From: Octopus vulgaris
Lineage: Eukaryota
Length of the DNA: 64,000 nt
Direction of reading: 5' to 3'
Assembly (NCBI GenBank): GCA_951406725.2
Contig: OX597816.1
Location: 3,348,001 to 3,412,000, forward strand
Position numbers and translations under genes: made by a program
Notes under the pieces: model-generated
The model's database searches: none
What the model saw: only the letters and a program-made list of their open reading frames with translations
What the model was told of the DNA's origin: nothing
Part shown: piece by piece, positions 6,660-52,848 of the stretch
How the letters are laid out: each line of letters begins with the position of its first letter
Numbering within the stretch: the first letter of the stretch is position 1

Positions 6660-7024
6660 AGCTTTCTGCACTTCTCATCTCCATGCCAGCACTCCACACG
6701 GATTTACTACTGGATATTCTGATTCTACTTTCACGGATTTCGTCGGACTCTTTCGTTGATGTAAAATCGCTCCAATATGCCACCACTTTTGAACTACTTC
6801 GAACTCTTCGAACCATTGACCTTTCTGATTTTTCATACCAGTCGCCATGCTTGACCGTTAAATCTACAGGTTTTTTTCCCTTCTCTCTGCTTATTTTCTC
6901 TCATTCTTTTCTGCTGAAGAGCGTAGGCTCGAAACATAAAAAAACTTTCTCAGTTATCCTAGCGTCAAACTATTACACCTGATTGTTGTTCATACAAATG
7001 CCTTCGTTTTTATAAATTTCAACA

Positions 7025-47505: not shown

Positions 47506-47773
47506 ATGTGTGTGTGTGTGTGTGTGAGTGTGTGTGTGTGTGTGTATTCTTTTAGTCTTTTATTTGGAGCACTGCCTTTAGTCGAATAAATCAACCGCAC
47601 CACTTATTCTTTGTAAGCCTAGTATATATTCTATCGGTCTCTTTTGCCGAACCGCACCGCTGGGTTACGAGGACGTAGACACGCCACCATCGGTTGTCAA
47701 GCGATGGTGGTAGGTGAAAGACAAACACAGGCACACAAACACACACATACATATGTATATATATATAAATATT

Positions 47774-47808
<35 letters not shown>

Positions 47809-47971
47809 GTTATCGCCATACTAATATGGCATTCTTATAAAAATAAGAAAAAAGCTGTCCGCTTATTGGCTCCATGAGGCCATCGCCTTAAGTTAGCTAT
47901 TTGATACACAAACTGTATCCATATAACCTTCGAACAAGGGAGGTCAGTCGCTCCACACTACTTGACCGGCA

Positions 47972-48013
47972 GCTACAGACGCGTTTCGGGGTATTGCCCC
48001 TTTTCAATGCAGC
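47972..48013 (-). ncRNA. Minimal hammerhead ribozyme, U3-A8 core (copy 1)
   Basis: gcugca UUGAAAA gggg caaua cccc GAA acgcgu C uguagc. Confidence 0.8.
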
Positions 48014-48333
48014 GTAGCCAGCCAGTAGGTCTCGCTTCCGACAATCTCTGTTCGATGGTTTTATTTACCTAGTTTCGGTGGAATACATCCACTTGTTTTT
48101 AATAATAGAAATATTAAAATAACTAAGTCTCTCTAAAAGAGAACAGCGGCAGCGTTCCCGGAAAATAATAGTTATCGCCATACTAATATGGCATTCTTAT
48201 AAAAATAAGAAAAAATCTGTCCGCTTATTAGCTCCATGAGGCCATCGCCTTAAGTTAGCTATTTGATACACAAACTGTATCCATATAACCTTCGAACAAG
48301 GGAGGTCAGTCGCTCCACACTACTTGACCGGCA

Positions 48334-48375
48334 GCTACAGACGCGTTTCGGGGTATTGCCCCTTTTCAATGCAGC
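48334..48375 (-). ncRNA. Minimal hammerhead ribozyme, U3-A8 core (copy 2)
   Basis: Identical to copy 1, 362 nt away. Confidence 0.8.
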
Positions 48376-48716
48376 GTAGCCAGCCAGTAGGTGTCGCTTC
48401 CGATAATCTCTGTTCGATGGTTTTATTTACCTAGTTTCGGTGGAATACATCCACTTGTTTTCAATAATAGAAATATTAAAATAACTAAGTCTCTCTGCCG
48501 GTCAAGTAGTGTGGAGCGACTGACCTCCCTTGTTCGAAGGTTATATGGATACAGTTTGTGTATCAAATAGCTAACTTAAGGCGATGGCCTCATGGAGCTA
48601 ATAAGCGGACAGATTTTTTTCTTATTTTTATAAGAATGCCATATTAGTATGGCGATAACTATTATTTTCCGGGAACGCTGTTCTCTTTTAGAGAGACTTA
48701 GTTATTTTAATATTTC

Positions 48717-48782
<66 letters not shown>

Positions 48783-49258: not shown

Positions 49259-49316
49259 GTTAAATACGGAGACATCGTCTTCTGCGCAAAAGTTTCATGT
49301 AAATTATTCTTCATAA

Positions 49317-49734
49317 CTATTTCTTTACTATCCACAAGGGGCTAAACACAAAGGGGACAAACAAGGAGAGAGAAACGGATTAAGTCGATTACATCGACCC
49401 CAGTGTGTAACTGGTACTTAATTTATCGACCCCGAAAGGATGAAAGGCAAAGTCGACCCCGGCGGAATTTGAACTCAGAACGTAGCGGCAGACGAAATAC
49501 CTATTTCTTTACTACCCACAAGGGGCTAAACACAGAGAGAACAAACAAGGACAGACAGACAGATTAAGTCGATTGTTTTGACCCCAGTGCGTAACTGGTT
49601 CTCATTTAATCGACCCCGAAAGGATGAAAGGCAAAGTCGACCTCGGCGGAATTTGAACTCAGAACGTAGCGACAGACGAAATACCGCTATGCATTTCATC
49701 CAGCTTGCTAACGATTCTGCCAGCTCGCCGCCTT
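49317..49734 (-). mobile_element. Type-B SINE tandem dimer
   Basis: Multimer junction gaaatacctatttc at ~49494. Confidence 0.9.
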
Positions 49735-50761
49735 AGGATTCTTCCTGCCGATACCATTATGTGTGGTTCCAGCACCATTATGCTGAAAATGCAGATTTTC
49801 ATACCTGCCTGACAAAGGAATCCGATCTAATTTCAGAATAAGAAAATACTGAGACATGCAATCGCGAAACTCCCTTTTCCCAATAACTCCCACGTTTTGC
49901 TCTCTTAATACATGGATTTCCCCTTAATACTTGGAAATTCCAGAATCTTTCACGAAGTATTCATTTGATGTACTGGGTTCACATCATCCGGATCATTAAA
50001 ATATACCATTCCTCATTTTCGTTCTCTTTGAAATGGATCCCATGGATTCCTTTTCGATCCCAATTCGCGAGGATATTCTTTGTGTAGATTGTAGAAATGT
50101 TTTAATGGAACTTTTGTTTTTCTTGCAAATGGTTGGGAATTTCATTTCATTCACGTCGGGGCTTAGCTCCACTTGGGATACCATTGTCTCCGCTTCGTAA
50201 AATATGGATTCTTTCTCAGCAGAAAAATCTTTCTTCTTACTAGGCTCCCGAACTCACATAATTTTAAACTTCGTGAATTAGTTTGTATATTTTCCCTACA
50301 TTAATTTCTGCTAGATTATTCCGTCACCCCCACCCTTTCTCTCTCTCTCTCTCTGTTCATAATAAAATGATATGGTATAATTATTAAATAATGCAATATA
50401 ATTAAAAATAATAATTTATGATAATTAAGAAGTTCTCAATTCCCTCGCACTGATGAGATCCAAATAGATTGAAATGATTATATATACGACTACTGAAGAC
50501 TTTACAGTTGAATAGGAATATCAAGGACTCCATATTTAAAACGAGAGAGAGAGAGAGCAATTCAGATTATGTGGTATATTCTATCCTATCAAACAGAAAT
50601 TGTTTCATTGTCGGAAAAACAAGGATTTCTGGTAAGACGATGCTCTCCTTTGCAATGGAATAACCAATGAGACAACAGATTGCTAGAAAAATAAAATGGG
50701 TGAGGCGCTAATATTTTTCAGCTTCACAAATTTGGAATTGGGAAGAAAGAAAAAGTAAAGT

Positions 50762-51090
50762 GGAAGGTGTTTATAATCCATTTAAGAAACACACAAAAAC
50801 CGTTAGATTCACTTCAACATTTAAATTTAATTTGCCAAAATATTTTCGTTGCTTTGAGACCGCGACCTGTTCACTGACAAAACTTTGTGCTGCATCTCCG
50901 TGTCAGTGAACAGGTCGCGGTCTCAAAGCAACGAAAATATTTTGACAAATTAAATTTAAATGTGGAAGTGAATCTAACGGTTTTTGTGTGTTTCTTAAAT
51001 GGTTTATAAAACACCTTCCACGCTGCAATTGTTTTCGTTCCAGCACACGATCTCAGATCAGGTCACTTGCTATGCAAATACATCTCCGTA
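50762..51090. mobile_element. Fold-back element with two divergent G3-C8 hammerheads and a 12-bp TSD
   Basis: Arms ~50760-50879 and 50901-51021; HHRs at ~50833-50879 (-) and 50901-50947 (+); TSD aaaaagtaaagt at 50750 and 51091. Confidence 0.88.
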
Positions 51091-52427
51091 AAAAAGTAAA
51101 GTCTTTTATATTTATATTTTTGAATATTTAAAGCCAAATTTGTTTGGTTTAGTAAAATTAATAAGTTTAAGTATGAGAGAAACAGTTAGATTTGGGTGGT
51201 AGAAACAGTGTTGCGTTGTGAGAGTTAGGTGGAGACAACGTGTAAAACAATTGTGAAAAAGATCACAATTATATAATAATAAAAAGGAAGAAAAACTAAA
51301 ATCGAAAAAGAAAGGGATAGGCTTAAAAACTGAAATTTTAGTTAAAATGAGAATGAATTTTGAGAAGGAAAGTGCTACGCTTTTAGCCGAATGAAACTTG
51401 TTTTGAATTTCAAATCAACCGAGAAAGAATAAAGATATCAGTTGAGAACGAGATTGTAGGAAAAGGTAAAGGTTCGAAGTGAGATCGTGCGCTAATTTAA
51501 GTGTAACTTGATAAAGAGATAATAAGTAAAAGTGGGGGAGGAAGAGGGTAGGGAGTTCAAGAATAAAACAGAAATTTATTTTGAGATTTTGGTGGGGAGA
51601 TAAATTATTGAAAAGTTTATTGATAGATATGAATCGTGAATGATCTTTGAATTTTTTTGCGGTTTGTTTTCTTATAAAATCTATTAAAATAAATTTGAAA
51701 CGTAGATATTAAAACACCTGAGAAGCGAGCGCTAAGAGTTTGATTAAAAGGAATTGCAATTTGATTTAGAGAGCAAGTGAGATTTATTAGGATTTGATGT
51801 GAAAAGAAATCAAACACTAGATTCGAACCCTCCACTTCGCGTCAAAAAAAAAAAAAAAAAAGGAAGTAACATCTCACATATGAGAGCGGCGGTGGTTGTA
51901 CTTCAGGGGAAATGTTGTAATCTCAGTCACTAACACACCACAGAGAAGAGGCAGCTGACCCCTAATGAGCTCAAGGACTCGAGACAGTTCTTACGATACA
52001 GTTTATACATCGCCAACGTGAAGACGTGAGGCTTTTTGGTTAGAATATTTGGCTAAATATCGTAGATGGTGAGTTCGATTCACGGTGGTGTCCTTGAGCA
52101 AGACACTTTATTCCACATTACTCAAGTTTACTCAGCAGGCAAAAATGAGTTATACCTGTAATTTAATGGGTCAGCCTTGTCCCATTTTGTGCCTCCCGTA
52201 ATCTCCCTGAGAACTAACGTGCTAACGATTCTGCCAGCTCACCGCGTCTGTGGAGTACTCGGCTGCTTACACGTTAATTTCATCAGGAGGCTGTTCCAGT
52301 TGATAGGATCATTTGGATCGCTCGTCGTTGTATCTGACGGAGGACCAGTACATCGCCGACACGTACGCAAACACATCAAAAAGAATGTAGCAAACTAAAG
52401 CTTAAAGGGTGAATATTCTCTGTCAGT

Positions 52428-52848
52428 ACCTATTTCTTTACTACCCACAAGGGGCTAAACACATAGAGGACAAGCAAGGACAGAGAAAGGGATTAAGCCG
52501 ATTATATCGAATCCAGTGCGTAACTGGTACTTATTTAATCGACGCCGAAAGGATGAAAGGCAAAGTCGACCTCAGCGGAATTTGAACTCACAACGTAACG
52601 ACAAACGAAATACCTATTTCTTTATTACCCACAAGGGGCTAAACACAGAGAGGACAAACAAGGACAGACATAGGTATTAAGTCGATTACATCGACCCCAG
52701 TGCGTAACTGGTACTTAATTTATCGACCCCGAAAGGATGAAAGGCAAAGTCGACCTCGGCGGAATTTGAACTCACAACGTAACGACAAACGAAATACGCC
52801 TACGCATTTCGCCCGGCGTGCTAACGTTTCTGCCAGCTCGCCGCCGCC
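52428..52848 (-). mobile_element. Type-B SINE tandem dimer
   Basis: Multimer junction gaaatacctatttc at ~52607. Confidence 0.9.

What the first reader, a model, noticed from the sequence alone, without database searches (positions are those of the whole stretch)
47803..48721. Tandem 362-nt unit bracketed by two U3-A8 hammerheads: candidate cephalopod retrozyme or circRNA producer
Seen: two head-to-tail units, each carrying gcugca-UUGAAAA-gggg(caaua)cccc-GAA-acgcgu-C-uguagc on the minus strand, no protein-coding ORF, an inverted partial copy, and (TA)n flanks. Known: C3-G8 is a tertiary pair in the hammerhead core and U3-A8 preserves it. Minimal HHRs with a palindromic stem III in Penelope-like elements and metazoan non-LTR retrozymes cleave as dimers and can give circular monomers. 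Inference: cleavage after both GUC sites (47978 and 48340) releases a 362-nt monomer, or about 356 nt without the 6-nt duplication near 48145 that the inverted copy lacks. Searches for CUGANGA would miss this core.
Basis: partly seen in the sequence, partly recalled or inferred. Interest (0 to 1): 0.9.

Follow-up and report, generated by a model that had tools for sequence, protein, structure and literature searches.

The report
Hammerhead mini-retrotransposon with Penelope footprints
This is one of roughly a thousand recent copies of a small non-coding jumping element whose repeats each carry a predicted self-cutting RNA motif, and whose insertion scars show it was likely pasted in by the enzyme of a Penelope-type retrotransposon, probably from a cut and possibly circular RNA; a new variant of a known kind of element.

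Summary
47803-48722 is one insertion of a young, non-coding, 362-nt repeat family (890 exact copies of the hammerhead core, 1,932 of a downstream 29-mer, in G000). Each unit carries a type I hammerhead with a U3-A8 core and a palindromic stem III; the window's tandem transcript folds, unconstrained, into the double hammerhead. Sister subfamilies down to 82% identity keep the core and swap the palindrome (ACGCGT, ACATGT, ACTAGT). The insertions show Penelope-like (PLE) anatomy: (TA)n targets, 5' truncation, an inverted second arm and two fixed 3' ends 63 nt apart; in 50 of 51 clean two-armed insertions one arm uses each end. Long arms always continue into further units, never into an ORF, so this is a non-autonomous PLE-type element (retrozyme-like), not just a terminal repeat. 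No autonomous parent was found in a partial search. U3-A8 is published for Schistosoma PLEs and occurs in an autonomous PLE of this genome, so the core is not new. Cleavage and circles are not shown; 5' ends pile up just 3' of the cleavage site, which is suggestive only. The '6-nt duplication' is a deletion in the inverted arm.

The parts
47803..48164 (-). Full 362-nt unit; its 3' end at 47803 is the short (tail-less) fixed end, unit position 362
48165..48496 (-). Second unit, 5'-truncated (unit positions 31-362), head-to-tail with the first
47972..48013 (-). Hammerhead 1 (type I, U3-A8 core, 4-bp stem II, palindromic stem III); predicted cleavage between 47978 and 47977
48334..48375 (-). Hammerhead 2, identical; predicted cleavage between 48340 and 48339
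47978..48339 (-). Predicted 362-nt monomer between the two cleavage sites; strongly self-paired
   Evidence: z -5.5 linear and circular; release is inferred
48495..48665 (+). Inverted second arm, unit positions 193-362; its 5' end lies 5-7 nt 3' of the cleavage site; joined to the first arm over a 2-nt overlap
48666..48722 (+). Tail of the second arm (unit positions 1-63, with a private 6-nt deletion); ends at the second fixed 3' end
47755..47802 (.). (TA)n target, left side
48723..48760 (.). (TA)n target, right side

Best explanation
The locus is one insertion of an abundant non-coding repeat family with a conserved hammerhead motif in every unit and PLE-type insertion ends, likely copied into (TA)n by a Penelope-like element's reverse transcriptase and endonuclease acting in trans on a template that is probably the hammerhead-cut monomer, circularised or re-entered. 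Steps. (1) Shown: dispersed, young, 5'-truncated arrays with inverted arms and two fixed 3' ends 63 nt apart. (2) Inferred: a locus with two hammerheads is transcribed; the two fold as a double hammerhead through the palindrome and cut out a 362-nt monomer. (3) Inferred: the monomer is ligated to a circle (or the RT jumps end to end), which lets one unit be copied into 1-6 tandem units. (4) Inferred: the PLE protein cuts both strands of a (TA)n tract and primes cDNA from both DNA ends, one at the RNA site at unit 362 and the other at the site at unit 63; the two truncated cDNAs join over microhomology, giving the head-to-head structure with a tail on one arm only.
For: Family size and youth: 890 and 1,932 exact motif copies; best copies 99% identical. 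PLE anatomy: 137 of 151 family-A arms end at one of two sites, 118 of those 137 run into (TA)n; 58 of 84 insertions are two-armed; 50 of the 51 with two canonical ends have one end of each kind, binomial p 2e-14 (7 pairs with a broken end set aside); 22 of 25 in subfamilies B/C (14 set aside). This matches the tail, inverted copy and microsatellite bias described for PLEs (PMC8557442, PMC3846280 passages) and the two internal RT start sites and two-strand cleavage and extension shown in vitro (PMC11167929). Non-autonomy: 67 of 135 arms with canonical ends exceed 425 nt and all consist of unit repeats; no PLE ORF continues a unit in register in 170 unit loci, some overlapping. Ribozyme under selection: first 100 of 1,809 degenerate matches have A8 in 100, U3 in 97, and a palindromic stem III in 98, in three different spellings (counted by eye); compensatory changes in stems I, II, III across 13 subfamily representatives, covariation 0.156 against 0.110 +/- 0.005, 0 of 500 shuffles; the unconstrained fold of the window's tandem transcript is the double hammerhead. 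Single-unit template: variants shared by 4 or more loci are carried by all covering units of a locus in 149 cases and mixed in 27, the mixed ones mostly at CpG or homopolymer sites. Cleavage trace: 12 of 80 arms in the chromosome-1 set start at unit 188-204, 7.1 times the rate over 52-187, p 8e-6.
Against: No cleavage, transcript end or circle was observed. The 188-204 window was chosen after seeing the data; a larger peak lies at 217-232 (19 of 80) and another at 16-51 (12 of 80), so RNA structure alone makes such peaks; no arm starts exactly at 188-189 and the closest (190) have TA microhomology; B/C show only 3 of 99 ends there, in a sample biased to long matches. About 85% of passes read through the site. 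Homogeneous arrays can also come from homogeneous linear source arrays or later DNA duplication (L112 shows a two-unit pattern). The covariation shuffle ignores relatedness. No autonomous family shares the unit's sequence among those read, and the best candidate helper, P1, shows a single 3' end with no 63-nt tail in 38 mapped ends. Published minimal PLE hammerheads cleave weakly in vitro, 8 of 9 Xenopus retrozyme dimers did not cleave, and the PAc hammerhead was dispensable for insertion in vitro.
Confidence: 0.7

Rival explanations
1. Same non-autonomous PLE-mobilised element, but the template is an uncut linear read-through transcript of a genomic array; the hammerhead is kept for another step (trimming, protein-assisted late cleavage) and no circle is made.
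For: Most cDNAs read through the cleavage site; hammerhead mutants did not affect PAc insertion in vitro and no reads ended at its cleavage site (PMC11167929); arrays of 5-6 units exist that could serve as sources.
Against: Linear copying with 5' truncation can only shorten arrays, yet single new variants are fixed across 4-6 units and both arms; the whole monomer, not only the ribozyme, keeps a compensated fold.
Confidence: 0.2
2. The unit is the pseudo-LTR of an autonomous PLE not yet found, and the arrays are truncated products of that element.
For: Anatomy is that of PLE ends; only 50 of 6,136 GIY-YIG candidates and 38 P1 loci were read; 190 PLE families are listed for Octopus vulgaris (supplement row).
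Against: All 67 arms longer than unit plus tail are made of more units; four subfamily groups down to 82% identity keep the same 355-363-nt period.
Confidence: 0.07
3. A satellite-like repeat spread by DNA-level duplication, with a decayed, functionless hammerhead look-alike.
For: Some local duplications exist (L171, L112).
Against: Dispersed 1-6-unit arrays with fixed 3' ends, ragged 5' ends and inversions; invariant core with compensatory stems.
Confidence: 0.03

Closest known systems
Metazoan non-LTR retrozymes (Cervera and de la Pena 2020, PMC7229834; Li, Clavereau and Pollet 2026, bioRxiv 10.64898/2026.07.22.740005)
   Same: Tandem non-coding units of 170-400 nt, under 50% GC (41.7% here), a type I hammerhead per unit, self-paired monomer, dimer-dependent ribozyme as in the axolotl elements, PLEs proposed as mobiliser.
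   Different: Those were defined on canonical hammerheads and shown to give circles; this one has a PLE-type core (U3-A8) and is untested. The passages read propose PLE mobilisation from co-occurrence and pLTR homology; here the insertion ends themselves carry the PLE signature, while homology to a pLTR was not found.
Endonuclease-positive Penelope-like elements and their pLTR hammerheads (PMC4209133, PMC8557442, PMC3846280, PMC11167929)
   Same: Partial tandems, inverted 5'-truncated copy, tail on one end, AT-rich or microsatellite target, hammerhead with palindromic stem III; U3-A8 as in Schistosoma Cercyon.
   Different: No ORF; tail is 63 nt rather than 30-40; the repeat is the whole element.
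MRC1 and other non-autonomous Chlamys elements of Chlamydomonas (PMC8557442, passage)
   Same: Non-autonomous PLE with multicopy head-to-tail insertions.
   Different: Those mostly share 3' ends with an autonomous family and most Chlamys lack hammerheads; here the hammerhead is conserved and no sequence partner was found.

Membership tests
Type I hammerhead ribozyme | Core C3-U4-G5-A6-N7-G8-A9, G12-A13-A14, A15.1-U16.1, H17, with 3-8 pairing | tested here: met
   Met as the U3-A8 variant; 97 of first 100 family matches U3-A8, 3 C3-A8, none G8
Type I hammerhead ribozyme | Three helices, supported by covariation | tested here: met
   Stem I 6 bp, stem II 4 bp, stem III only between two copies; double changes in all three
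Type I hammerhead ribozyme | Self-cleavage after H17 | not testable with these tools
   Only the indirect 5'-end excess at 188-204
Metazoan non-LTR retrozyme | Tandem non-coding 170-400-nt units, GC under 50%, hammerhead in each | tested here: met
   362 nt, 41.7% GC, longest ORF 38 aa
Metazoan non-LTR retrozyme | Highly self-paired monomer | tested here: met
   z -5.5 (A) and -6.0 (B) against dinucleotide shuffles
Metazoan non-LTR retrozyme | Canonical hammerhead with loop 1-loop 2 contacts | tested here: inconclusive
   Helix sizes are canonical but the core is U3-A8 and stem III needs a dimer; tertiary contacts not modelled; Rfam models do not hit
Metazoan non-LTR retrozyme | Accumulates as linear and circular monomer RNA | not testable with these tools
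   Only contigs were available; a circle junction has the same sequence as the tandem
Metazoan non-LTR retrozyme | Large target-site duplication when present; no PBS or PPT | not tested
   (TA)n targets hide duplications; PBS and PPT were not searched
Autonomous EN+ Penelope-like element | ORF with RT and GIY-YIG domains | tested here: not met
   None in the window or in register with any unit in 170 loci
PLE-mobilised element (cis features) | Partial tandem, 5' truncation, inverted 5'-truncated copy | tested here: met
   58 of 84 insertions two-armed; 5' ends ragged
PLE-mobilised element (cis features) | Optional 3' tail between two RT start sites, on one end | tested here: met
   63 nt; 50 of 51 and 22 of 25
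PLE-mobilised element (cis features) | AT-rich or microsatellite target | tested here: met
   118 of 137 canonical ends followed by (TA)n
PLE-mobilised element (cis features) | Sequence shared with an autonomous partner | tested here: inconclusive
   None in the families read, a small part of the genome's PLEs; three direct junctions with P1-type elements

The most novel reading that the evidence does not exclude
This family records the full retrozyme cycle in genomic scars: a U3-A8 double hammerhead cuts out a 362-nt RNA that is circularised, and a dimeric PLE protein primes both ends of a cut (TA)n tract on that circle, obligately one at each of two fixed RNA sites, rolling around it to make tandem arms. 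The one-site-per-end rule would be a general property of PLE integration, and the lineage would have lived as a protein-free circle long enough to lose likeness to its helper.
Probability: 0.3. Interest if true: 0.72.

Novelty: new variant of a known kind. Interest (0 to 1): 0.5.

Why it matters
How animal retrozymes are put back into genomes, and what PLE hammerheads are for, are both open in the papers read. This family offers about a thousand near-identical recent insertions of a 362-nt element with PLE-type ends, small enough to test whole in vitro. The near-absolute one-end-each rule puts a number on a feature so far described as 'often at one end', and predicts how a dimeric PLE protein uses its two RT start sites. 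It also shows that screens for canonical cores undercount retrozymes. The ribozyme variant itself is not new.

Tried and rejected
Search for the autonomous parent: GIY-YIG family search (50 loci read of 148 listed, 6,136 candidates), P1, P4, long flanks of 40 unit loci, and the oldest subfamily as query: no shared sequence; the search is partial. Sequencing runs: no RNA holder listed on record; four runs guessed to be RNA were laid as contigs, which cannot show starts, ends, strand or circles, so they are not used either way; laying of larger runs to look for a parent is left open. Intron idea (donor-like AG/GTAAAT near unit 97, acceptor-like near 332, which would put the hammerhead in an intron): no such joint and the acceptor AG is lost in subfamily C: rejected. 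38-aa ORF across the unit junction: stop in B, ATG lost in C: rejected. Rfam scan: only simple-repeat miRNA noise. P1 as parent: no shared sequence and no tail; kept only as possible helper. Earlier findings of this scan: three look-ups, nothing. Lunse et al. 2017 on PLE hammerhead dimers is not held: seen only as a reference title.

Full report
Observation. The region holds one full 362-nt unit (47803-48164, minus), a second unit lacking its first 30 nt (48165-48496, minus), and an inverted arm on plus (48495-48722) made of unit positions 193-362 and 1-63, all inside a (TA)n tract. Unit positions count along the minus strand from 48164. Rfam gives no hammerhead hit at these places at E<=10. 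The 6 nt near 48145 are the family majority and the inverted arm has lost them.

Family. G000 (2.8 Gb, 227 contigs; the host was not identified by any search) has 1,117 first-look candidates for the unit, the 40 scored ones with best matches at 99%, 890 exact copies of a 32-nt core and 1,932 of a 29-mer at unit 245-273. The first 100 listed matches of the latter fall in about 50 insertions, which suggests near a thousand insertions (my extrapolation). A relative met by chance beside a PLE led to sister subfamilies B and C, 82% identical to the window's family A, with the same period.

Ribozyme. In a single copy stem III cannot close. The unconstrained fold of the window's tandem transcript is the double hammerhead, the two ACGCGU palindromes paired with each other (-170.9 kcal/mol, the same as when the pairing is forced). 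A degenerate pattern gave 1,809 matches; in the first 100, position 8 is A in all, position 3 is U in 97, and stem III is a palindrome in 98, spelled ACGCGT, ACATGT or ACTAGT (counted by eye). Across 13 representatives 96.5% of cells pair, with double changes in stems I, II and III and in helices outside the ribozyme; covariation 0.156 against 0.110 +/- 0.005 in shuffles that ignore relatedness. The predicted monomer folds at z -5.5, B at -6.0. So the RNA structure is under selection; activity is untested. U3-A8 is not new: it was described in Schistosoma Cercyon PLEs, about 1,300 hits (PMC4209133; abstract, results, discussion and part of methods read), and an autonomous 781-aa RT/GIY-YIG family here carries it with a palindromic ACATGT.

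Insertion anatomy. I mapped 151 arms in 84 family-A insertions: the chromosome-1 set (all listed matches up to 150 Mb) and a second set picked by full-length or core matches. 137 arms end at unit 354-362 or 54-64, both natural ends reading ...CTATTAT, and 118 of these run into (TA)n; 5' ends are ragged. 58 insertions have two arms facing outward. Of the 51 with both ends canonical, 50 have one short end and one tailed end (p 2e-14); the exception in fact runs on past the tail; 7 had a broken end and were set aside. B and C give 22 of 25, with 14 set aside. The window's own insertion follows the rule. PLEs are described with partial tandems, an inverted 5'-truncated copy, a 30-40-nt tail often at one end, and microsatellite bias (PMC8557442 and PMC3846280, passages). 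In vitro, an anole PLE protein, predicted to be a dimer, cuts and extends both strands at AT-rich DNA and starts at two internal RNA sites whose distance is the tail (PMC11167929, parts 1-2 read). The simplest reading is that each DNA end is primed at a different one of the two sites.

Non-autonomy. 67 of 135 arms with canonical ends are longer than unit plus tail, up to 2,000 nt, and all are further units. No PLE protein match continues a unit in register in 170 unit loci, some of them overlapping, and the window has no PLE ORF. No autonomous family read shares the unit (50 GIY-YIG loci of 6,136 candidates, 38 P1 loci, P4). Three loci join a unit directly to a 5'-truncated P1-type element (L115, L209, L237). 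P1 is young, abundant (5,964 candidates) and TA-targeting, so it is a candidate helper, but abundance alone could give such hybrids, L237 can be read as separate insertions, and P1 shows no tail in 38 mapped ends.

Template. Variants seen in four or more loci are carried by every covering unit of a locus in 149 cases and mixed in 27, the latter mostly CpG or homopolymer sites; single new variants fill 4 of 4, 5 of 5 or 6 of 6 units, across both arms in some. Copying linear arrays with truncation cannot multiply one unit, so a one-unit template copied repeatedly is the most economical reading; homogeneous source arrays and DNA duplication remain possible, and 139 of 146 locus-private variants sit in one unit only, as later mutation would give under any model. 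In the chromosome-1 set 12 of 80 arms start at 188-204, just 3' of the cleavage site, 7.1 times the upstream rate, as run-off from cut RNA would give. Against this: the window was chosen after the fact, a larger peak lies at 217-232, no end is exactly at 188, and B/C show 3 of 99.

Comparison. It works like a metazoan non-LTR retrozyme (PMC7229834, passages; PMC7761336, passages) and meets the sequence-level features; circles and cleavage, which define the tested members, could not be tested. A 2026 preprint (parts 1-3 of 5 read) argues from vertebrates that such elements are non-autonomous PLE derivatives, and non-autonomous head-to-tail PLEs are known from Chlamydomonas. Five answered full-text searches with hammerhead, Penelope, retrozyme, mollusc, octopus or cephalopod terms listed no paper on a cephalopod element of this kind; an Octopus vulgaris repeat annotation has no mention of hammerheads or retrozymes in text or its one held supplement. 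Repbase and Dfam could not be searched and the preprint's supplements are closed, so the family may already be catalogued under a Penelope or unknown label.

Verdict. Real, well conserved, and a new variant of a known kind: a retrozyme-type unit with a PLE-type hammerhead and clear PLE insertion scars. Interest 0.5: lower than first scored because the core and the concept are published, kept up by the one-end-each rule and by how directly the family lets retrozyme mobilisation be tested.

Noticed in passing
L161-L168 (e.g. G000:C2:34639500-34647500): P1: young, very abundant autonomous PLE (ORF about 1,070 aa from the first Met, 4.5-kb tandem period, TA-targeting) whose hammerhead core reads CUGUUGA (U at position 6) in every copy printed; an unusual core that is fixed in the family.
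   Followed up: partly
L061 and L035-L060: Autonomous 781-aa RT/GIY-YIG family with a U3-A8 hammerhead about 75 nt before its 3' end; many identical intact ORFs, so probably active.
   Followed up: partly
L115:3698, L209, L237:1457: Direct junctions between this family's units and 5'-truncated P1-type elements, consistent with template switching or mixed two-armed insertions.
   Followed up: partly
L229 (G000:C1:150604000-150613999): P4: another PLE-like ORF of 1,245 aa with a long asparagine-rich insert before the RT, like the N-rich inserts described in rotifer Penelopes.
   Followed up: no
family A, unit positions 217-232: The strongest 5'-end peak (19 of 80 arms); may be RT stalling in the long stem or a transcription start site.
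   Followed up: partly
window 50436-50503 (+): Weak Rfam HH9 match (21.6 bits, E 0.13) with a CUGAUGA core; probably a decayed hammerhead of another repeat.
   Followed up: no
window 6906, 43133, 55605 (+), 62515 (-): Other minimal-hammerhead-like motifs with canonical C3-G8 cores; the one at 6906 resembles the P1 motif. Likely PLE end fragments.
   Followed up: no
window 50770-51010: Near-perfect inverted repeat (110-nt arms at 97%, 21 nt apart), MITE-like or fold-back.
   Followed up: no
window 49314-49700 and 52427-52800: 184-nt tandem duplication inside a SINE-like repeat, present twice.
   Followed up: no
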